The notes under the pieces are model-generated. The model did no database searches, was not told the origin of the DNA, and saw only the letters and a list, made by a program, of their open reading frames with translations. The position numbers were made by a program, and so were the translations under genes. Shown one piece after another: positions 2,369 to 19,602 of a DNA stretch of 20,026 nucleotides; within the stretch, counting starts at the first letter, position 1, and each line of letters opens with the position of its first letter. The stretch is taken from the IMG/VR virus record IMGVR_UViG_2695420733_000001. The stretch is one strand, 5' to 3'. Source of the stretch: a virus. Lineage: Duplodnaviria; Heunggongvirae; Uroviricota; Caudoviricetes.

Positions 2369-2566
2369 CACTTTTTTAAATCCAACGACAGACGGCTGGC
2401 ATTTAAGTATTGTGAAATATTATCAAATGTAATCATCATTGATTTACAAAAGATACATTTTGCCCCGAAAGGATTCATGTCAGAAACATCAAAAGATGAT
2501 GTTCTATACTGGGAACCATGACAACACGGGCATCTAAAGTGAATATGGTTTGTAATATTGTCTACC

Positions 2567-2779
2567 TCAAAGCGCCACTACATGAACAGCGGCAGGACCT
2601 TTAGGTCCGTTCTCAATACCAAATTCAACTTCCTGATTCTCAGTTAATGTTTTGAAATCGTTGCTCTGAATTGCTGAGAAATGGACAAACACATCTTTGC
2701 TGCCATCTTTCGGCGTGATGAAACCAAAACCTTTTTCAGGGTTAAACCATTTCACTAAACCAGTCATTTTGTTAGACAT
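2567..2779 (-). CDS. cspI: Cold-shock protein CspI, 70 aa
   Basis: Translation [70 protein letters not shown]; canonical CspA-family RNP motifs KGFGFI and VFVHF. Confidence 0.9.
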
Positions 2780-3141
2780 AATTATTACCTTTTGAAGAAA
2801 TTAGCCCTTGGGCAGAATGGTCCGAAAAAAAATATCAGAGAGAAAAACCAACAAGGAAATCTCAAGAGGTACAAATAATAAAATTATAACAATGACTGCT
2901 TCAGATAAATTTGTAACAAACCAGAACACCATTAACGCATGATTAACCACCCATAGCAAGGATTACTTTTGTAAAGAAAAACACAGCAATGAAAGAATAG
3001 CTTTATTTATTAATAAAACGTGTCATTCTGATTAAGACCTTTTATCTTACCCTTAAGATTTCAGGAATTTTGGCTCATGGAAGAGTCCTTTTTATTTAAA
3101 TTTTACATTCCGCGATGTAAATGTTCCGATTTAATATTACC

Positions 3142-5168: not shown

Positions 5169-5449
5169 GAGATTGTGGTGCTTTTTGTGGGAGTCATCCA
5201 CTTACGCACTTTGTTTTGCCATGCCAGCAGTTAGCTTCTGCTGTAAAACTATTCATGCAGCAAACCTGCACTTCACCACAATGGTTAGCATACTTTTCCT
5301 GATTAAGATTTTGCCAAATATGCTAGCCATTGTTTCATGTATTGGACCTCCTTACTTTTTATTAAAGAGATCCAATATTCACTACTCTGTCCGTATCTCT
5401 ACTCAGGCATCAGCCTTCTTCGTTATCGTATACAGACGAGCGATGAATT

Positions 5450-5665
5450 TTAATCAGTAATGATGACATTTGCTGCTGCAGGACCTTTAGCACCACTCTC
5501 TATAGAGAAGGTAACCTTTTGACCTTCAAATAAGGTTCGATAATTATCATTCTGAATCGCAGAAAAATGCACAAACACATCTTTACTACCATCAACAGGA
5601 GAAATAAAGCCGAAACCTTTATCAGCGTTAAACCATTTTACTAAACCAGTCATTTTATTTGACAT
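5450..5665 (-). CDS. cspB: Cold-shock protein CspB, 71 aa
   Basis: [71 protein letters not shown]. Confidence 0.9.
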
Positions 5666-5965
5666 TCTACATTCCTTAACTTGAGCCTTTCGGCATAAAT
5701 GGTTTGCATAACAGAAACGACTTCGTACTTAATTGGAGAGACTCAAAGAAGGAATAAGTGAATAACACCTGAAATGAGAACTGCTTTAGTAAACTACTTC
5801 GTATATCGTCTGTTCTTCAAACCGACGCAATCATTAACGCATAGTTGAACATATGAAGCAATGTTTATTTTAGACATCCAGCCATCTTCAACCCCATCAA
5901 AAAACTATAGCTTTCTTCAGGAACGTGTGTATAGTGCGCCAAGTTATCAGTATTAAGGAATTTTT

Positions 5966-11309: not shown

Positions 11310-12623
11310 TCAATCTTTTTTATCGGGATCAGGCTTCTTTTTAGGTAACTTCGGGGGCTTAACTTGCTGATGACTTTGCGTTCGGCGCGTAAGCCAGGGA
11401 TGGTCAGCTTTAGGTTTAACATAGTATTTTGAGCGTAAATCAATACGGGCATTATCCACTCGTTCATGGACACTCTTTTCATCATCCAGTGGTATAGGCT
11501 CCGGGCCATCAACATACTTTTCCCAGCCCAGCGCTTTCCCGTCATACAGAACGTTAATTTCACCGTCAAAGTTCTCGCATACAGTAACAACCGAATGCCT
11601 AAGTCGATATCCCCGGCCCTCACTGCGTACCTGAAACGCACTGCTTTTGTACTGGAAAGTGAGATTTTTAGACAGAACGCGCTTCGCCTGTAGGCTGAAG
11701 ATATAACCCAGTTCCTCTTCAGAATGGTGCACATCAAGATGAGCATTATCAGTAGTACGAGGCGACGTAGCGAACCGGTTGTTATAGGCTTCAATAAAGG
11801 TCGGCAACCATGCATTTGCTGTTTCAATATCACTGATATTCTGAAGCCGCATTTCTTTGACCAGCCTGTCCTGTAGTGTCTGATTGGCGCGCTCTACCCG
11901 CCCTTTTGCCTGCGGGCTGTTGGCATGGATTGGCTCGATGCCCAGTGTCTTTATCGCACGAGTGAACTGGGTCAGCTCACCTTCCCGCTCTGGGTTATTT
12001 ACCCTGAATATACTGTGTCTATCAGAGTAGAGAGCGAGCGGTACGCCATGATCATTAAGGTAACCCCGGAGGGTTTCCATGTAAGCCCGGGTTGTTTCAG
12101 CAGGCACAAAACGCAACGCCATCAACGCACTGGTGGCATCATCAATGAAAACGATCAGTGTACATCTGGGGCCTCGATTTTCAAACCAGTCATGAGGTGA
12201 GCCATCAATCTGGATCAGTTCACCGTAAGATGGTCGTCGCATGCGGCGTTGATATATACGGGCAATTTTACGACGGCGTTCACGCCATAACCCCTCTTCT
12301 ATCATCCACTTTCTGAGAGTTTCAACGGATAAAGATAAACCGTGTATCTCGCGCAATTTTTCGCACGCAAACGTAGGTCCAAAATCAGCGTAACGGCCTT
12401 TGAGGAGTGAAATTACTGTTGCTCTGAATTCAGTAGAAAAGGAATTATTAGGACGCTTTCCACGTCGGTGGGAAACCAGACCAGAAGGCCCTTCATTTCT
12501 ATACCGTTGCACCAGACGTTTAACCTGCCGAATAGAAATGCCAATGCGTGCCGCAGCTTGTTCCTGAATAATCTGAAGTCGGTGGAGTTCCTTATGACTC
12601 ATCGTAACAGTCTCTTTGATCAT
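11310..12623 (-). CDS. DDE transposase with N-terminal HTH and integrase-core (rve-like) domain, 437 aa; IS481-like or ISNCY/IS1202-like
   Basis: N-terminal HTH-like MSHKELHRLQIIQEQAAARIGISIRQVKRLVQRY; DDE signature candidates LIQIDGS, VFIDDATS, KGRVERANQTLQDR. Family is judged from architecture, not a search. Confidence 0.75.
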   Translation of the reverse strand: MIKETVTMSHKELHRLQIIQEQAAARIGISIRQVKRLVQRYRNEGPSGLVSHRRGKRPNNSFSTEFRATVISLLKGRYADFGPTFACEKLREIHGLSLSVETLRKWMIEEGLWRERRRKIARIYQRRMRRPSYGELIQIDGSPHDWFENRGPRCTLIVFIDDATSALMALRFVPAETTRAYMETLRGYLNDHGVPLALYSDRHSIFRVNNPEREGELTQFTRAIKTLGIEPIHANSPQAKGRVERANQTLQDRLVKEMRLQNISDIETANAWLPTFIEAYNNRFATSPRTTDNAHLDVHHSEEELGYIFSLQAKRVLSKNLTFQYKSSAFQVRSEGRGYRLRHSVVTVCENFDGEINVLYDGKALGWEKYVDGPEPIPLDDEKSVHERVDNARIDLRSKYYVKPKADHPWLTRRTQSHQQVKPPKLPKKKPDPDKKD

Positions 12624-12957
12624 GAAAAATCCCCCAGAGAATTGTCTGGGGACATTTTAGAATGGTTCAAAGGGGACATTACAGCTTGGTGTTAACAATA
12701 GCCTGCTTCTCCGTGCCTTTCGGCACGTAAGAGGCTAACCTACATGTGTCTAGCATGAAATTGGCCTCAGATTAATGTTAAGCGTCTTGCAGGACGCGTA
12801 ATGTTAACTGGGGCTTTTCTCTATCTGCCGTTGGTGTCCATGCCCGAGGCAGATAGCCTCAAGCACCCGCAGTCATTCTACTTAACTAAGATTTCCCCGC
12901 AAACCGTTTTTGTCCAGCACAGTAAATATCCAACTAAACCAATGGAGTTCGCTGTAT

Positions 12958-13137
12958 TTACCGCCAGTATTCAATGCACATGACCGCCATGAACACCCCT
13001 AAAAAAAGGGCATTTATATATCCAAATATTAATATCAAAACATCAACTTTTTCCATATACCTTGCTGTGAAGATGATGGGCATACATGATGCGAACAACC
13101 AGAACGCAACAAACAAAAACTGCAATGCGTTTTTCAT
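12958..13137 (-). CDS. Small two-helix membrane protein, 59 aa (MKNALQFLFVAFWLFASCMPIIFTARYMEKVDVLILIFGYINALFLGVFMAVMCIEYWR)
   Basis: Consensus SD AGGAGG 5 nt before the ATG; two hydrophobic helices. The track's 72-aa ORF is an upstream extension. Confidence 0.5.
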   Translation of the reverse strand: MKNALQFLFVAFWLFASCMPIIFTARYMEKVDVLILIFGYINALFLGVFMAVMCIEYWR

Positions 13138-13379
13138 TATTCCTCCTACAATCAATGTGCAATTACATTTAAACACACCTCAATTTGGCCGGACATATAA
13201 ATATCTAAACCAGAAAAAATCACTTACATAGCGTTACAAACTCTTTAGTCTAAAGGTTCATCGTAAAACATTCCCCATACTTATCAGTCCGTTCCGCGCC
13301 AGGTAGCTCATTGCCTTATCTGGCAACCTGTAATCAGGTTTCCGCTTTTTCAGTTGGCTGGTCGTTTAACCGACATAGT

Positions 13380-14030
13380 TAATCCATTAATCTAGTTGCC
13401 GGATGTTGGTGGATTTTCGCGTTTTAGTTGTTCATAAAAGTGCACAGCTTTAACCAGTTCTTCTGATGTAACTGGGACTGGTGAGGCAGTGAATAAGGCC
13501 TGAATTTGATAGTTCGGCCTGTCGTTACAATCCTCTTTTTTCGGTACATATTTCCAGTCACCAGACCACTACTTCCCCTGAAAGTCCGTAACGCCTTTTT
13601 TCACGTAGCGATATCGCCATGCCACTGGTTTTGCTTGCCCCGCCGTTTCATGCCCTTCCTGATAATTAATCTCGCTCATTCATCGCCCCACTCATCACAA
13701 TATGCTTCGACCGGAGTTTTTCCCGCTTCATAGTCATCACGCTAGGATTCGACATCAGCAGCACTTCCACCGCGTAACTCACCATAGTCCATTAATAGTT
13801 CATCCCGCTCTTCAAAACTGATGTTATATTTGGCTGAACAAAAATCAGCCACTTTGTTCTTCCTCATCGTCTTTTATTTCGTGGTATGAGTAATTGCAGT
13901 AGTTAAAGAAAATTTCTTATGCTCCGTCATGAATTTCCTCAGGTGTTGCGTCATCGTCCACTTCGAATACATCCTCAAAATCTCCACCAGCTATTCCCGT
14001 TTCAATAATAATTTTGAACTTTCGCATTTC
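13380..14030 (-). pseudogene. Decayed coding region: a run of 23-41 codon minus-strand frames that look like frame-shifted pieces of former phage genes
   Basis: Adjacent short frames ending ...KHIVMSGAMNERD, MSEINYQEGHETAGQAKPVAWRYRYVKKGVTDFQGK, ...WSGDWKYVPKKEDCNDRPNYQIQALFTASPVPVTSEELVKAVHFYEQLKRENPPTSGN; no ORF of 60 aa or more on either strand. Confidence 0.35.
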
Positions 14031-14289
14031 ACTACCGCCCTTTCGGGCGGCCTCCTGATGTTCTGAGGGTGCAGAAATCCATCCGGTTAAGGATTAAATT
14101 TTATTTACAGAACTGAATTTAATTATTCAGATATACGTATCTGTAGCCTTACGAATCTACTCACTGGATGCCTCTTTCATAAAAATAATCCAGTGGGTTT
14201 TATCGTTTTTTCCCTGTTCGTTGACAGATAACAGGTTTTCTGTCTGTCAGTGCCAGAATCTGGCTTACCGGTATTTGCGTTTCATTCCA

Positions 14290-14646
14290 TTAAAAAATCA
14301 GAACGCCGTGCGGCCTCAACACCCGAAAGGCTTCTTTAAATCTCTGTCGCGAATCATCACGCCAGGCATCTTTATTCAGCCGTCCATATTTCTTTCCCAT
14401 CCAGGCGTTATCACCAACACTCTCAAGATGCGGAGGGTCTAATACAACCATCGAAAAAGATGCGTCTGCAAATGATAATGCACGAAAATCTGCGATAATG
14501 TCAGGGCTGATAATCAAGCGTCTCCCATTGCGTAATGTGTATCCTTCTTTTCTGATATCGCTGAATATCGCCCGTTCGTCAGACTTATCGAACCAGAACA
14601 TGCGGCTGCCACAGCACATATCAAGAATGGTTGCCGGTGCACTCAC
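14290..14646 (-). CDS. Short SAM-dependent methyltransferase-like ORF, 118 aa (DPPH motif), probably truncated by an in-frame stop
   Basis: Motif-I-like LDMCCGSR and motif-IV-like VVLDPPH; far shorter than normal DNA methyltransferases; frame continues 29 codons after the TAA. GTG start overlaps the upstream stop. Confidence 0.55.
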   Translation of the reverse strand: MSAPATILDMCCGSRMFWFDKSDERAIFSDIRKEGYTLRNGRRLIISPDIIADFRALSFADASFSMVVLDPPHLESVGDNAWMGKKYGRLNKDAWRDDSRQRFKEAFRVLRPHGVLIF

Positions 14647-15065
14647 TGCGCCACGTCCTGAAAATTACCCTGATAGAAAGCCAGTATGCGCTGCATAACT
14701 TCGCTCTTCCGGCACTCGCGACAGATTATGTTTAGGCGACTGTCGTAGCGACGTATTTCTCCGTCAGGTGATGACCAGATAAGGTCCGGATCAACCACAG
14801 CAGGTTTCTTCACCTTTGCCCTCGAGAGTTTTTTGCGGGCGTTTTGCCAGTCCTTACGCGCCTGTTCAGAGGGGAATAACCCGTAGCCGGAGTTGTATAC
14901 ATCGCCACTGGCTACCAGCTCTCTGGCAAGAACGCTCATCAGATATCTAGTCGCACCTGTTTTAGCTTCCAGTTGCCGTAACGTCTCACGGCCGCTCTGG
15001 CGCACGAGTTCCACCACCTGCCATTTAATTTTTTCCCGCTCTTCTTGTGTAAAAACTTTTGCCAC
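14643..15065 (-). CDS. Hypothetical protein of the replication module, 140 aa
   Basis: GTG start 5 nt after AGGGGG; between the replication initiator and the methyltransferase-like ORF in one operon. Confidence 0.6.
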   Translation of the reverse strand: MAKVFTQEEREKIKWQVVELVRQSGRETLRQLEAKTGATRYLMSVLARELVASGDVYNSGYGLFPSEQARKDWQNARKKLSRAKVKKPAVVDPDLIWSSPDGEIRRYDSRLNIICRECRKSEVMQRILAFYQGNFQDVAQ

Positions 15066-15105
15066 AAGTCCCCCTTAAAATTACCTCATGACCTGAAATC
15101 AACAC

Positions 15106-16071
15106 TTATCCTCTGAAACCAGGCGGAATTTCTGTATCCGGTTCAGAAATATGATTAACACAACGCTGTACAGGTGAACGTCCCAGGCGGATGACCAGTT
15201 CGTCCCATTTTTCGCGGAGCTTTGACGGGCTCATGATGTTTTTTACCCAGAATGGATCTCGCTGAACCCGACCAAACATTTCGCAAATTTGTCTGTGGCT
15301 TCTGCCATCCAGCATCCGCATTGTGCGCACGTCATTGGCCCAGGCAGTCCAGTTAGGCTCTTTTGGTCGCATGATCTCGCCATCATCACTGGCTGCCTGT
15401 TCGTAGAGACCCACGATCCGCCCCCAGATCCACTGCGCACACGCCAAATCCTCCCTGCTACCCCACTGGCGTTTTTTCGCACTAAACACAACCGCGTCGG
15501 AGTTCCGGGTTAAAAAATCCTGTTCAGTCGTCTGCGGGTCCGGTTGCGAAGCTTCCGGACGAAAAGTGTTTTTATTCTCTGTAGTAATCTCTGTTGTATT
15601 CTCTGTAAGATCATCAGGCCATTTTGACCCGATGACATTGGGTCGTTTTGAACCAATGGAGCGTTTCATTTTGACCTCTTCCATCGTGTCATTTTGACCT
15701 GATGGAGCGGCGCATTTTGAACCGATGGATTCGCTCAATTTGCCACCATCTAAAAGCTCGCTCCCATAGTTGATCGTGTAGAAATTGGTCATATCGCGCT
15801 TTGATTTATTGAGCTTTTCACAACGCAAAAGCCCCAGCGTTTTCAGACTTGCAAACGCGCGCTTTAACGTTGACTCTGACCAGAATGGGAACTGTTCCAG
15901 CCATTGTTCCGTTGTGTTATAAATCCAGCGAACACCATCACATTCCATGCCGGAGTTGGTATCTCTCAACCAGTAGTGCAGTTGTTGCAAAACAATGGCT
16001 TCGTTTAAGCCAATTTTCATTGCCAGCTGCGTGTTTATAACCAGTGGGCGTTCAGCAAAAAGAAGGCTCAT
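15106..16071 (-). CDS. Phage replication initiator (lambda O-like organiser) with the origin iterons inside its coding sequence; frame is open to 16125 (TTG)
   Basis: N-terminal winged-helix-like region (LNEAIVLQQLHYWLRD); central repeated peptides SIGSK/VIGSK encoded by DNA iterons; sits where lambda O sits. Start (16071, 16020 or 16125) uncertain. Confidence 0.7.
   Translation of the reverse strand: MSLLFAERPLVINTQLAMKIGLNEAIVLQQLHYWLRDTNSGMECDGVRWIYNTTEQWLEQFPFWSESTLKRAFASLKTLGLLRCEKLNKSKRDMTNFYTINYGSELLDGGKLSESIGSKCAAPSGQNDTMEEVKMKRSIGSKRPNVIGSKWPDDLTENTTEITTENKNTFRPEASQPDPQTTEQDFLTRNSDAVVFSAKKRQWGSREDLACAQWIWGRIVGLYEQAASDDGEIMRPKEPNWTAWANDVRTMRMLDGRSHRQICEMFGRVQRDPFWVKNIMSPSKLREKWDELVIRLGRSPVQRCVNHISEPDTEIPPGFRG
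15620..15750. repeat. Iteron array (about six 18-20 bp direct repeats, consensus CATTTTGAMCYGATGGAG) = putative prophage origin of replication
   Basis: Copies start near 15620, 15644, 15666, 15689, 15712 and 15736, spaced about 22-23 bp, all inside the initiator gene as in lambda ori. Confidence 0.65.
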
Positions 16072-16573
16072 AATTCCATCCAGCTTTTTGTTGGTATTGC
16101 TGTCGATACGCAAGTTTGAAAGCAATTGCTTTTTCTATAAGTTCGTCAGTTTCACGATCCACTACGGCAGGATCAGCAAAAAGCAGTCCGGACTCCACCA
16201 CATCGCCATATTCTTTGTTTAACCCGGCGATCATGCACGTGATGCTTTTTCCGTCAGTAATTTCACGATACAACCTGAAATCATTAATCCGGATAGCCTC
16301 CATAATTGCAGGCACTAGCGCCGTGAACTTTTCACGCTTATCCCTGGTGTCGATAGCCTTCCAGCGTTCAAATATCTTCACTCGATTAACGCCAAGCGCT
16401 CGCTGATCAATCGCGCCACCTTCATATGTGACACGCTGAACATCGATGTTCGGGCGCTCTTTCAAAGCCCAGAATGCTTCAGTGATTAATATCGTCGCCT
16501 GCTCCTGTGTCATTCCTGGTCGACATATCCAGGCATCCAGAGCCTCACGAGCCTGTTCAGGAGTGATTTTCAT
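16052..16573 (-). CDS. CII-position protein, 173 aa, possibly YdaT-family; K-12 ydfX may be a remnant of it
   Basis: ATG at 16573 overlapping the dicC 3' end; between the cro-like gene and the replication initiator. Family assignment is a guess from position. Confidence 0.55.
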   Translation of the reverse strand: MKITPEQAREALDAWICRPGMTQEQATILITEAFWALKERPNIDVQRVTYEGGAIDQRALGVNRVKIFERWKAIDTRDKREKFTALVPAIMEAIRINDFRLYREITDGKSITCMIAGLNKEYGDVVESGLLFADPAVVDRETDELIEKAIAFKLAYRQQYQQKAGWNYEPSFC

Positions 16574-16787
16574 TGTTCAACCGCCCCGCCCGCTTCGTCT
16601 TACGATATTCATCATAAACTTTGGGATCATACTGAAGCTCCCCGCCAGATGCCTCCTGTAGACGCATCGCGCGACCTTCGGGAACTAAATCCCCTTTCCA
16701 GCTATAAAGCGAAGCCAAACGAATACCTGCTGCTTGTGCAAGTTTTGTTTTTGAACCGAAATACAAAAGAGCGTCAGTTTTAAGCAT
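16557..16787 (-). CDS. dicC: Cro-like regulator DicC, 76 aa
   Basis: MLKTDALLYFGSKTKLAQAAGIRLASLYSWKGDLVPEGRAMRLQEASGGELQYDPKVYDEYRKTKRAGRLNNENHS; divergent from dicA. Confidence 0.85.
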   Translation of the reverse strand: MLKTDALLYFGSKTKLAQAAGIRLASLYSWKGDLVPEGRAMRLQEASGGELQYDPKVYDEYRKTKRAGRLNNENHS

Positions 16788-16801
16788 TTAAAACACCTTT
16801 A

Positions 16802-16821
16802 TTGTTAGTCATAACTAACAA
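16802..16821. promoter_or_regulatory. Operator palindrome in the dicA/dicC divergent control region
   Basis: TTGTTAGT-CATA-ACTAACAA, a 20-bp palindrome with perfect 8-bp arms, in the 83-bp gap between the divergent starts. Confidence 0.6.
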
Positions 16822-16870
16822 GATAGATGTTAACAAAAACATAGTCAATACGATTTAGCATTAGCTAACT

Positions 16871-17278
16871 ATGGAAACAAAAAATTTAACTATCGGCGAA
16901 CGCATCAGGTATCGTCGGAAAAACCTCAAACACACCCAAAGGTCTCTTGCTAAAGCCCTGAAAATCTCCCATGTGTCTGTATCACAATGGGAACGGGGTG
17001 ATAGTGAACCTACAGGGAAGAACCTTTTTGCCCTCAGCAAAGTATTGCAATGCTCACCAACATGGATTCTATTTGGCGATGAAGACAAGCAACCAACACC
17101 ACCTGTTGAGAAGCCAGTTGCCTTATCCCCCAAAGAACTAGAGCTCCTTGAGCTGTTTAATGCACTGCCAGAATCAGAACAGGATACCCAGCTCGCCGAA
17201 ATGCGAGCTCGAGTAAAAAACTTCAATAAACTCTTTGAAGAATTACTAAAAGCCCGTCAGCGGACAAATAAAAGATAA
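16871..17278 (+). CDS. dicA: HTH (XRE-family) repressor DicA, 135 aa
   Basis: METKNLTIGERIRYRRKNLKHTQRSLAKALKISHVSVSQWERGDSEPTGKNLFALSKVLQCSPTWILFGDEDKQ...; length matches DicA. Confidence 0.9.
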   Translation: METKNLTIGERIRYRRKNLKHTQRSLAKALKISHVSVSQWERGDSEPTGKNLFALSKVLQCSPTWILFGDEDKQPTPPVEKPVALSPKELELLELFNALPESEQDTQLAEMRARVKNFNKLFEELLKARQRTNKR

Positions 17279-17317
17279 CATCATCAATGAGTTATCTTTT
17301 ACCACATCAATTATGTT

Positions 17318-18318: not shown

Positions 18319-18376
18319 TTTCTGGTGACGTTTGGCGGTATCAGTTTTACTCCGTGACTGCTCTGCCGCCCTTTTT
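18319..18376 (+). ncRNA. dicF: DicF small RNA (Hfq-dependent, represses ftsZ and other mRNAs)
   Basis: TTTCTGGTGACGTTTGGCGGTATCAGTTTTACTCCGTGACTGCTCTGCCGCCCTTTTT matches DicF as recalled, including its terminator hairpin and U-tail. Confidence 0.9.
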
Positions 18377-19014: not shown

Positions 19015-19602
19015 ATGAGTAAAGTCTTTATTTGCGCCGCTATTCCTGACGAACTGGCAACAAGGGAAGAAGGCGCTGTGGCTGTAGCCACAGCCATTGA
19101 AGCTGGCGACGAACGCCGTGCTCGAGCAAAATTTCACTGGCAATTCCTGGAACATTATCCGGCTGCTCAGGACTGCGCTTATAAATTTATTGTCTGCGAG
19201 GATAAACCTGGCATACCCCGCCCTGCCCTCGATTCATGGGATGCTGAATATATGCAGGAAAACCGCTGGGATGAGGAGTCTGCTTCTTTTGTCCCGGTTG
19301 AGACTGAATCCGATCCGATGAACGTCACTTTTGACAAGCTGGCCCCTGAAGTACAGAACGCTGTCATGGTTAAGTTCGACACATGTGAAAACATCACCGT
19401 TGATATGGTTATTAGCGCACAGGAATTGTTGCAGGAAGACATGGCAACATTCGACGGACATATCGTTGAAGCGTTGATGAAAATGCCAGAAGTTAACGCC
19501 ATGTATCCGGAGCTTAAGTTGCACGCCATTGGGTGGGTTAAGCATAAATGTATTCCTGGTGCTAAATGGNNNGNANNCTGGTTTACTCGACCTGTACCTT
19601 AA
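19015..19602 (+). CDS. ydfE: YdfE-like protein; 3' end uncertain because an 8-nt N-run (19570-19577) interrupts the frame
   Basis: ATG at 19015 with a GAGG SD ([20 protein letters not shown]...); the open frame begins at TTG 18979. Assigned by position after ydfD. Confidence 0.6.

What the first reader, a model, noticed from the sequence alone, without database searches (positions are those of the whole stretch)
15106..16125. Intact-looking replication module with intragenic iterons
About six 18-20 bp direct repeats lie inside the initiator gene and are read as repeated SIGSK-type peptides, the lambda ori-in-O arrangement. From memory K-12 Qin keeps only remnants here, so this prophage may retain a working origin.
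Basis: partly seen in the sequence, partly recalled or inferred. Interest (0 to 1): 0.4.

Follow-up and report, generated by a model that had tools for sequence, protein, structure and literature searches.

The report
Lambda-style replication origin inside initiator gene
This Qin-type E. coli prophage keeps an intact phage replication-initiator gene with the origin's repeated binding sites inside it, as in phage lambda; that is an ordinary arrangement, but this version has no helicase-loader gene and ends in a copy of the host DnaT protein's tail.

Summary
On the minus strand, 15106-16071 encodes an intact 321-aa protein. It matches PHROG 391 "replication initiation O-like" over its full length (E 1e-91), and its C-domain is 34% identical to lambda O. 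The central linker coding region (15612-15750) holds five clear and one degenerate 23-bp direct repeats, followed by a 71% AT tract. This matches the lambda order of parts.

- **DNA-level selection:** across 31 alleles, synonymous-site diversity collapses only over the repeats and AT tract.
- **Co-variation:** the repeat sequence tracks the N-domain type (35/35 versus 0/43).
- **K-12:** MG1655 Qin lacks all of this through a 4.8-kb deletion.
- **Live phages:** near-identical modules sit in phage genome records (HannyBb, mEp460_ev081, PhiR42_1).

A working origin is therefore likely, though untested.

DicA has no recognisable cleavage domain, so SOS induction may not fire the origin.

The unusual feature is the last 20 residues, which copy the extreme C-terminus of host DnaT (14/20 identical). 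In relatives this tail goes with a DnaC-like neighbour or no loader, never with P.

Verdict: a new member of a known kind, of modest interest.

The parts
15106..16071 (-). Replication initiator gene (321 aa; lambda O-like C-domain; RefSeq WP_000054512.1 'hypothetical protein')
   Evidence: Intact ORF. PHROG 391 'replication initiation O-like' E 1e-91 over residues 17-321. BLASTP to lambda O E 1e-26. An identical protein is annotated 'DNA replication protein O' in PhiR42_1.
15757..16071 (-). Coding region of the N-terminal domain (aa 1-105), the predicted winged-helix iteron binder
   Evidence: AF2 gives helices plus a beta hairpin at residues 14-101. Foldseek hits are weak: staphylococcal RepA N-domain / Rep-DNA complex (4pql, 5kbj, 4pt7). 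PHROG 6493/428/11233 match residues 2-170. The N-domain type co-varies with the iteron type.
15612..15750 (.). Iteron array of six 23-bp direct repeats. Plus-strand starts are 15612, 15636, 15659, 15682, 15705 and 15728 (degenerate). Coding-strand core is CCATYGGKTCAAAATG. Units 15612, 15636 and 15682 have dyad arms CATYGG...CCRATG.
   Evidence: Conserved in HannyBb and mEp460 with the same spacing. Codon position-3 diversity is 0.036 here versus 0.156-0.191 in the flanking domains.
15560..15611 (.). AT-rich tract next to the iterons on the promoter-distal side, with a 12-nt repeat (TCTCTGTAGTAA x2.7 at 15576-15607). This is the presumed unwinding region.
   Evidence: GC 0.35. TRF. 71% AT over 48 nt versus 73% for the lambda tract in the same relative position. 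It has the lowest synonymous diversity in the gene, 0.012, and is conserved in mEp460.
15184..15525 (-). Coding region of the C-terminal helical domain (aa 183-296), homologous to the lambda O C-domain
   Evidence: PHROG 2357 E 1.8e-46. AF2 helices with pLDDT 58-84.
15109..15171 (-). Coding region of the extreme C-terminal tail VQRCVNHISEPDTEIPPGFRG, a copy of the host DnaT C-terminus
   Evidence: 14/20 identical to DnaT residues 160-179, end-to-end at both C-termini. IPxGFRG is kept in diverged relatives. Under protein-level purifying selection (pos3/pos1-2 ratio 5.3).
16820..16848 (-). pR-like sigma-70 promoter candidate upstream of dicC (cro-like). It would drive dicC, the cII-like gene, the initiator and DUF977, and would read through the origin.
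   Evidence: Consensus scan, 9/12 match; the number of sites in the region is no more than chance. Its position lies between divergent dicA and dicC. This part is inference only.
16052..16573 (-). YdaT-family / cII-like gene immediately upstream, overlapping the initiator start by 20 nt
   Evidence: Pfam PF06254 and PHROG 163. Truncated to ydfX in K-12.
14643..15065 (-). DUF977 / Ren-like gene immediately downstream, in the place where lambda has P followed by ren
   Evidence: PF06163 E 5e-29 and PHROG 142. Sits 40 bp after the initiator stop codon. No DnaC, DnaB or P similarity anywhere in the window.
11495..16293 (.). Segment absent from K-12 MG1655 Qin (4.8 kb): ISNCY remnant, sok-like RNA, pseudogenes, truncated methyltransferase, DUF977, the initiator with its origin, and the 3' part of the ydaT-like gene
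   Evidence: blastn of the window against NC_000913.3 1630000-1654000, with annotations.

Best explanation
This is the replication initiator gene of a Qin-type lambdoid prophage, with the phage origin embedded in its coding sequence, built like ori-lambda inside gene O.

**Shown:**
- An intact 321-aa gene whose C-domain is homologous to lambda O.
- Five good and one degenerate 23-bp direct repeats, followed by an AT-rich tract. All lie in the stretch that codes for a predicted disordered inter-domain linker.
- DNA-level (not protein-level) constraint on exactly that stretch.
- Strict co-variation of repeat sequence with N-domain type.
- Presence of the same module in complete phage genomes.

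**Inferred mechanism:**
1. When DicA repression is lifted, the pR-like promoter transcribes dicC, the cII-like gene and the initiator across the origin.
2. The winged-helix N-domain binds the iterons (dimers on the dyad-symmetric units) and forms a nucleoprotein complex.
3. That complex destabilises the adjacent AT-rich tract.
4. The C-domain and its C-terminal tail then bring in the host DnaB helicase.

No P, DnaC or DnaB homologue is encoded here. I infer that loading uses host DnaB-DnaC, and that the DnaT-like tail (...SEPDTEIPPGFRG) is the recruiting peptide.

The origin is probably competent. Whether the whole prophage still produces phage is a separate question.
For: - **Repeats:** (leave-one-out scores 14-26 bits against a background maximum of about 16).
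- **Family:** PHROG 391, E 1e-91. Lambda O C-domain, 34% identity, E 1e-26.
- **Same order of parts as lambda:** four lambda iterons spaced 20/24/23 followed by an AT tract.
- **Disordered linker:** AF2 pLDDT below 30 for residues 109-177, which is the repeat and AT coding stretch.
- **Diversity in 31 alleles (pos3 / mean of pos1-2):** N-domain 8.1, C-domain 5.1, tail 5.3, iterons 0.79, AT tract 0.70.
- **Co-variation:** 35/35 genes with this N-domain carry 5 iteron PWM hits. 43/43 genes with another N-domain but a C-domain at least 90% identical carry none. SfII has a different N-domain and different 15-bp repeats at the same place.
- **Phage genomes:** HannyBb (99.4% identical protein) is a 45-kb genome with a full set of structural genes and no DnaC, DnaB or P homologue. 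Also mEp460_ev081 (98%), mEp460 (68%) and PhiR42_1 (99.7% DNA identity over 19.5 kb).
- **Frequency:** 416 of 5426 complete E. coli genomes carry at least 80% of 14600-17300.
- **Tail:**
- **Precedent:** the sister cryptic prophage Rac has an active but repressed origin, oriJ (PMC3945230).
Against: - No experiment on this sequence was found or could be run. Binding, unwinding and replication are all inferred.
- The N-domain has no Pfam hit, and the fold matches are weak (E 0.03 or worse, on a model with mean pLDDT 55.6).
- No helicase loader is encoded, so firing depends on an untested host interaction.
- Genes just downstream are decayed: a truncated methyltransferase, two pseudogenes and an ISNCY remnant. 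The element may therefore be partly defective.
- Low synonymous diversity over the iterons could in principle come from a local recombination sweep rather than from selection.
- I could not find the paper behind PhiR42_1, so its status as a viable phage rests only on the record's 'host' field.
Confidence: 0.8

Rival explanations
1. The module is a relic. The gene and repeats are intact in sequence, but the origin cannot fire in this prophage because the helicase loader (a DnaC-like or P gene that relatives carry between the initiator and DUF977) has been lost.
For: 35 of 80 IMG/VR loci with a C-domain at least 90% identical carry a DnaC-like gene of 246-248 aa directly downstream. One relative with the same N-domain carries a lambda P-like gene there. 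The genes downstream of the window's module are decayed.
Against: The complete HannyBb genome has the same loader-less arrangement and no DnaC, DnaB or P homologue anywhere. Neither mEp460 nor SfII has a DnaC-, DnaB- or P-like gene annotated within 3.5 kb downstream of the initiator, and 75/75 SfII-type loci are loader-less. 43 of 80 close relatives are loader-less. Purifying selection on both domains and on the tail persists in the type-A allele set, which mixes loader-less and DnaC-adjacent loci.
Confidence: 0.1
2. The repeats matter as a repeated peptide in the protein (SIGSK-type motifs) and not as DNA sites.
For: The repeats are translated, and SIGSK/IGSK recurs three times.
Against: Successive 23-nt units are read in different frames, so only some give the same peptide. 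Diversity at codon position 3 is as low as at positions 1-2 across the repeats, unlike the rest of the gene. The stretch is predicted to be disordered. Relatives with a different N-domain carry different repeats at the same place.
Confidence: 0.04
3. The repeats are operator or control sites rather than an origin, for example for autoregulation of the operon, copy-number handcuffing, or binding of the neighbouring cII-like or DUF977 proteins.
For: Iterons in plasmids also serve control functions. The flanking genes encode small DNA-binding-type proteins.
Against: The adjacent conserved AT-rich tract and the lambda-like order of parts fit an origin. The repeats co-vary with the initiator N-domain, and the downstream DUF977 or DnaC partner does not track the N-domain type.
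Confidence: 0.05

Closest known systems
Phage lambda ori-lambda within gene O (O/P replication module)
   Same: - Direct repeats of about 20-23 bp with partial dyad symmetry lie inside the initiator ORF.
- An AT-rich tract of about 45 bp follows on the promoter-distal side.
- Both elements lie in the linker between the N- and C-domains.
- The C-domain is homologous (34% identity, E 1e-26).
- The gene order matches: repressor / cro-like / cII-like / initiator / (P) / ren-like.
   Different: - The N-domain is unrelated by sequence, with no PF04492 hit.
- There are six units at a strict 23-bp period, against four in lambda.
- There is no P gene.
- The C-terminal tail is DnaT-like (IPPGFRG) and not lambda-like (DWIYGVDL).
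Lambdoid phages mEp460, SfII/SfIV and HannyBb (single-initiator replication regions; PHROG 391)
   Same: Same protein family and the same C-domain and tail type. No loader gene is annotated downstream of the initiator, and HannyBb has none anywhere in its genome. HannyBb and mEp460 have the same iterons and AT tract at the same positions.
   Different: SfII has another N-domain and 15-bp repeats. mEp460 and SfII have a longer tail (...VDYSQIPAGFRG) and a different small gene downstream, a PHROG 1324 'transcriptional activator'.
E. coli K-12 Rac prophage ydaU-ydaV region (Rac carries the active origin oriJ)
   Same: A cryptic lambdoid prophage with a repressed origin. The operon has the same layout: cro-like, YdaT-family, initiator. 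YdaU ends in ...VNTVSLPDSAIPPGFRG, the same DnaT-type tail, and has its own central repeats (AAGCAGATGTTCAA x4).
   Different: YdaU is annotated as a DUF1376 protein and is not O-like. It is followed by a DnaC-like ATPase, YdaV. I did not verify that oriJ coincides with the YdaU repeats.
E. coli primosomal protein DnaT
   Same: The last 20 residues are 70% identical and sit at the extreme C-terminus of both proteins. dnaT lies directly upstream of dnaC, as many of these initiators lie directly upstream of a DnaC-like gene.
   Different: There is no similarity outside the tail: hhalign of the C-domain against DnaT gives probability 0.3%. The 'Primosomal protein I' label on the mEp460 records is therefore a misnomer based on the tail.
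Staphylococcal RepA_N plasmid initiators (pSK41 / pTZ2162 RepA)
   Same: By established knowledge, these have a winged-helix N-domain that binds iterons located in the middle of the rep gene. They are the top, though weak, structural matches to the N-domain model (4pql, 5kbj, 4pt7).
   Different: Foldseek E-values are 0.03-0.2 on a low-confidence model, there is no sequence-level match, and the C-domain is different.

Membership tests
Lambda-type origin embedded in the initiator gene (ori-lambda/O arrangement) | Several direct repeats (iterons) inside the initiator ORF, more than chance gives | tested here: met
Lambda-type origin embedded in the initiator gene (ori-lambda/O arrangement) | AT-rich tract directly next to the iterons on the promoter-distal side | tested here: met
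   GC 0.35 at 15560-15619. 71% AT against 73% in lambda.
Lambda-type origin embedded in the initiator gene (ori-lambda/O arrangement) | Iterons with internal dyad symmetry (dimer binding sites) | tested here: inconclusive
   Three of six units are self-complementary at 16/23 positions. The others score 10-12/23.
Lambda-type origin embedded in the initiator gene (ori-lambda/O arrangement) | Origin elements constrained as DNA and not as protein | tested here: met
   Codon-position diversity across 31 alleles.
Lambda-type origin embedded in the initiator gene (ori-lambda/O arrangement) | Initiator binds the iterons and the fragment replicates autonomously | not testable with these tools
   Only indirect support: N-domain and iteron co-variation and presence in complete phage genomes.
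Lambda O protein family | C-terminal domain homologous to lambda O | tested here: met
   BLASTP E 1e-26. PHROG 2357/277/391.
Lambda O protein family | N-terminal domain homologous to lambda O (Pfam Phage_rep_O) | tested here: not met
   No Pfam hit at E<=0.1 and no N-terminal BLASTP alignment.
Lambda O/P two-gene module | P-type helicase recruiter encoded directly downstream | tested here: not met
   The downstream gene is DUF977. tblastn with lambda P and a second P-like protein finds nothing in the window.
PHROG 391 'replication initiation O-like' | Full-length profile match | tested here: met
   E 1.1e-91; residues 17-321 against profile positions 11-298 of 298.
DnaT (primosomal protein i) | DnaT C-terminal three-helix domain and N-terminal domain | tested here: not met
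   hhalign probability 0.3%. NCBIfam DnaT scores 16 bits against a cut-off of 201, tail only.
DnaT (primosomal protein i) | Extreme C-terminal motif ...SEPDxxIPPGFRG | tested here: met
   14/20 identical at the C-terminus.
RepA_N / DnaD-like winged-helix initiators | Winged-helix N-domain of that fold | tested here: inconclusive
   The top Foldseek hits are 4pql, 5kbj and 4pt7, but with E 0.03-0.2 and a model of mean pLDDT 55.6. PHROG 6493 'DnaD-like helicase loader' E 1e-36 over residues 2-168.

The most novel reading that the evidence does not exclude
The C-terminal peptide ...D-x-x-(I/V)-P-x-G-F-R-G is a portable docking motif for the DnaC (or DnaB-DnaC) helicase-loading complex.

It is shared by host DnaT and by at least two sequence-unrelated groups of phage and prophage initiators: the O-like proteins here and Rac YdaU. 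PHROG 2509- and 6451-type initiators also match DnaT through to its C-terminus, although their tail sequence was not inspected. The motif would let an initiator such as this one run a one-gene replication module by taking host DnaB-DnaC directly, with no P protein.

Support comes from the neighbouring genes.
- Initiators with this tail are followed by a DnaC-like gene (35/80 loci; Rac ydaU-ydaV; host dnaT-dnaC) or by no loader (43/80, 75/75, HannyBb).
- They are never followed by a P-like gene.
- The three relatives with a lambda-type tail (lambda, L090, L171) are all followed by P.

If correct, this would also identify the part of DnaT that recruits DnaB-DnaC during replication restart. The 2026 preprimosome structure paper states that this step is still unknown (PMC13377028).
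Probability: 0.3. Interest if true: 0.6.

Novelty: new member of a known kind. Interest (0 to 1): 0.3.

Why it matters
For genome annotation, a gene that RefSeq calls "hypothetical protein" in hundreds of E. coli genomes is a phage replication initiator carrying an origin. Qin-type prophages outside K-12 should therefore not be assumed replication-dead, which affects how read-depth peaks and prophage mobility are interpreted.

For replication biology, this family offers a natural set of swaps. The same C-domain occurs with or without an adjacent DnaC-like gene. The same N-domain occurs with either a DnaT-type or a lambda-type tail, and only the latter comes with P. These combinations make the question of how an initiator hands DnaB to an origin directly testable, and possibly also the question of which part of DnaT contacts DnaB-DnaC.

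The origin-in-gene arrangement itself is textbook.

Tried and rejected
- **Pfam and NCBIfam on the initiator:** no usable family. The only NCBIfam hit was a sub-threshold DnaT match to the tail.
- **PDB sequence search:** only the DnaT tail.
- **C-domain against DnaT:** profile-profile comparison found no relation, so I rejected "DnaT homologue".
- **AlphaFold2 with an 11-sequence alignment:** low confidence (mean pLDDT 55.6). The Foldseek PDB search gave no hit at E<=1e-3, so fold assignment of the N-domain stays tentative.
- **First idea, that the DnaT-like tail replaces a loader gene:** rejected in that simple form. 35/80 close relatives with the identical tail have a DnaC-like gene next door. 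I reformulated it as "the tail pairs with DnaC, phage or host".
- **Literature searches:** PhiR42 and "initiator-solo" found nothing. mEp460 papers were uninformative. The DnaT structure papers I read assign no specific binding partner to residues 154-179.
- **Promoter and terminator scan:** no more sites than chance in the region. The pR-like site is only a positional guess.
- **tRNA scan:** none found.
Full report
**What is there.**
The window is a Qin-type lambdoid prophage of non-K-12 E. coli. Bases 14600-17300 are 100% identical to ATCC 8739, W, IAI1 and many other strains. 416 of 5426 complete genomes carry at least 80% of that stretch. The ATCC 8739 annotation gives the local gene order on the minus strand as dicC (cro-like), a YdaT-family gene, a "hypothetical protein", a DUF977 gene and a short methyltransferase, with dicA diverging on the plus strand.

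RefSeq and phage records start the gene at the ATG at 16071, giving 321 aa.

**Checking the observation.**
The repeat finder and Tandem Repeats Finder both report a 23-nt array at 15612-15750. I placed six units at 15612, 15636, 15659, 15682, 15705 and 15728.

In leave-one-out PWM scoring the first five score 14.2-26.2 bits. The best of 39,522 background positions on both strands of the window scores 14.5-16.0. Four units have no equal in the background, one has a single equal, and the sixth is degenerate at 11.2 bits.

Units 15612, 15636 and 15682 have dyad arms (CATYGG...CCRATG) and are self-complementary at 16 of 23 positions.

On the coding strand the array reads ESIGSKC-APSGQND-TMEEVKMK-RSIGSKR-PNVIGSKW. 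Because 23 is not divisible by 3, the peptide recurs only when the frames coincide.

Directly after the last unit, in the direction of transcription, lies a tract of GC 0.35 containing a 12-nt repeat. It is 71% AT over 48 nt. The tract in the same relative position in lambda is 73% AT.

**What the gene is.**
Pfam and NCBIfam give nothing usable. PHROG 391 "replication initiation O-like" matches residues 17-321 at E 1e-91.

Residues 147-294 align to lambda O at 34% identity, E 1e-26. The alignment starts in the linker that in lambda is encoded by the origin's AT-rich region. Lambda's four iterons (spacing 20/24/23) sit at the equivalent place in O.

The N-domain is unrelated to lambda O by sequence. 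It matches phage families labelled DnaD-like or replication initiation protein.

An AlphaFold2 model from 11 sequences is of low overall confidence (mean pLDDT 55.6) but shows a clear architecture:
- residues 14-101 form helices and a beta hairpin;
- residues 109-177 have pLDDT below 30;
- residues 183-295 form a helical domain;
- residues 298-321 form a disordered tail.

The disordered 109-177 segment is the stretch encoded by the iterons and the AT tract.

Foldseek against the PDB gave no hit at E<=1e-3. The best weak hits are staphylococcal plasmid RepA N-domains and a Rep-iteron DNA complex, along with other winged-helix proteins. I treat the winged-helix assignment as probable and not established.

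**Evidence that the repeats act as DNA.**
From IMG/VR loci and two phages I collected 31 distinct alleles of the gene with this N-domain, at 70-100% protein identity.

| Region | Diversity at codon position 3 | Ratio to mean of positions 1-2 |
|---|---|---|
| N-domain | 0.156 | 8.1 |
| C-domain | 0.191 | 5.1 |
| Tail | 0.246 | 5.3 |
| Iterons | 0.036 | 0.79 |
| AT tract | 0.012 | 0.70 |

So synonymous sites are constrained only over the presumed origin.

Among 80 loci whose C-domain is at least 90% identical to the window's, all 35 with this N-domain have five iteron PWM hits. All 43 with a different N-domain (MSSKLHG...) have none and carry other repeats. SfII likewise combines a different N-domain with 15-bp repeats at the same position.

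This is the classic modular pattern of lambdoid initiators, and it points to the N-domain as the iteron binder.

**Is the module likely to work?**
- An identical protein is annotated "DNA replication protein O" in Escherichia phage PhiR42_1, which matches the window at 99.7% over 19.5 kb.
- HannyBb has a 99.4% identical protein, the same iterons and the same gene neighbours. It is a 45-kb genome isolated from bird faeces, with a full set of structural genes.
- mEp460_ev081 (98%) and mEp460 (68%) carry the same arrangement.
- I could not find the publication behind PhiR42_1.

K-12 MG1655 Qin equals the window minus 11495-16293, so it has lost the gene and origin entirely. By analogy, the sister cryptic prophage Rac is reported to keep an active but repressed origin, oriJ (PMC3945230).

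**What is missing, and the DnaT-like tail.**
The gene after the initiator is DUF977 (PHROG "Ren-like"), 40 bp downstream. tblastn with E. coli DnaC, E. coli DnaB, lambda P and a second P-like protein finds nothing in the window, and nothing in the whole HannyBb genome.

The last 20 residues (QRCVNHISEPDTEIPPGFRG) are 70% identical to the last 20 of E. coli DnaT. Nothing else in the protein resembles DnaT. The motif IPxGFRG persists in relatives whose preceding tail has diverged.

The neighbouring genes show a pattern:
- In 80 loci with the same tail, the next gene is DnaC-like in 35 and DUF977 in 43, in all combinations with N-domain type.
- 75 of 75 SfII-type loci have no DnaC-, DnaB- or P-like gene within 2.5 kb downstream.
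- Relatives with a lambda-type tail are followed by a P-like gene. These are P0036 (...DWNSADGWEDVL), L171 (...EWNTAQGWEDVL) and lambda itself.
- K-12 Rac YdaU, annotated as a DUF1376 protein and not O-like, also ends in ...SLPDSAIPPGFRG and precedes the DnaC-like YdaV.
- Host dnaT directly precedes dnaC.
- DnaT's C-terminal domain matches the C-termini of several phage "replication initiation protein" PHROGs.
- Published work has already noted a DnaT C-terminal motif in domesticated O-like proteins (PMC5509034).

These counts are not phylogenetically independent, and only three lambda-type examples were seen.

I infer that the tail is the element that couples the initiator to a DnaC-type loader, phage-encoded or host. 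This is a hypothesis only. The DnaT papers I read assign no specific binding partner to residues 154-179, and the 2026 preprimosome paper states that how DnaB-DnaC is recruited remains unknown.

**Comparison and verdict.**
In how it works, this is an ori-lambda-type origin in an O-like initiator gene. In membership, it belongs to PHROG 391 and shares the lambda O C-domain. It fails the lambda O N-domain and the P-partner criteria, and it is not a DnaT homologue.

I classify it as a new member of a known kind.
- the gene is on the minus strand;
- the repeat unit is 23 bp, with five good copies;
- there is a single replication gene;
- SOS is unlikely to be the trigger, because DicA shows only an HTH domain.

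Interest is modest at 0.3. The tail hypothesis is the part that could matter more.

Noticed in passing
window 11495-16293: This 4.8-kb segment is exactly what K-12 MG1655 Qin lacks. The deletion endpoints fall near ydfW and inside the ydaT-like gene, leaving the K-12 stub ydfX. The flanks are 99.6-99.9% identical.
   Followed up: yes
window 12697-12868 (-): An Rfam sok antitoxin RNA match (104 bits) lies inside the K-12-missing segment next to the ISNCY transposase remnant. This is a second hok/sok-type locus in addition to hokD. HannyBb annotates a 'MokW-like host killing protein' in the equivalent region.
   Followed up: no
proteins P0016-P0021 (290 aa), aligned to window aa 116-146: E. coli variants of the initiator lack exactly 31 aa (93 nt). 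That is the distance between iteron starts 15705 and 15612. The deletion is in frame, lies between iterons, and removes four units.
   Followed up: partly
proteins P0001, P0002, P0004 (448 aa): In some genomes (56 contigs for P0001) the YdaT-family gene and the initiator are called as one fused 448-aa protein, presumably through a change in the 20-nt overlap at 16052-16071.
   Followed up: no
L248:2620-3477 (K-12 Rac ydaU) and L248:2972-3063: Rac YdaU ends in ...VNTVSLPDSAIPPGFRG, the same DnaT-type tail, and is followed by the DnaC-like YdaV. It has four copies of a 14-mer (AAGCAGATGTTCAA) in its central region that may be the Rac iterons. I did not check whether they coincide with oriJ.
   Followed up: partly
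E. coli DnaT (L008:2979-3518) against PHROGs: The DnaT C-terminal domain (aa 73-179) matches the C-termini of phage 'replication initiation protein' families PHROG 1408, 2509, 1032, 3992 and 6451 (E down to 1e-27). This fits a phage origin for the dnaT-dnaC pair.
   Followed up: partly
window 14290-14646 (-) and 13259-14028: The methyltransferase after DUF977 is truncated: 118 aa matching positions 52-165 of a 229-position PHROG profile. It is followed by two RefSeq pseudogenes and an ISNCY transposase remnant, so the region just downstream of the replication gene is decayed.
   Followed up: partly
window 1912 and 19570-19577: N characters (masked or ambiguous bases) occur in the window. The K-12 and phage alignments stop at 19569.
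   Followed up: no
hit H6 (NZ_CP026085.1 'DH5alpha', 4.83 Mb): A record labelled DH5alpha carries this module at 100% identity although K-12 MG1655 lacks it. Its size resembles the E. coli W / LY180 records in the same hit list, so the strain label may be wrong.
   Followed up: no
L172-L177, L188, L190 (IMG/VR): Initiators ending in ...DYEIPDGFRG or ...DYATPEGFRGY are followed by a gene with a ParB-like 'KVIDGHHR' motif and not by a loader. This was judged by eye from the sequence, with no profile search.
   Followed up: no
window 18320-18371 (+), 2540-2925 (-), 5434-5826 (-): Rfam finds DicF sRNA and two cspA-type thermoregulator leaders (upstream of cspI and cspB), as expected for Qin.
   Followed up: no
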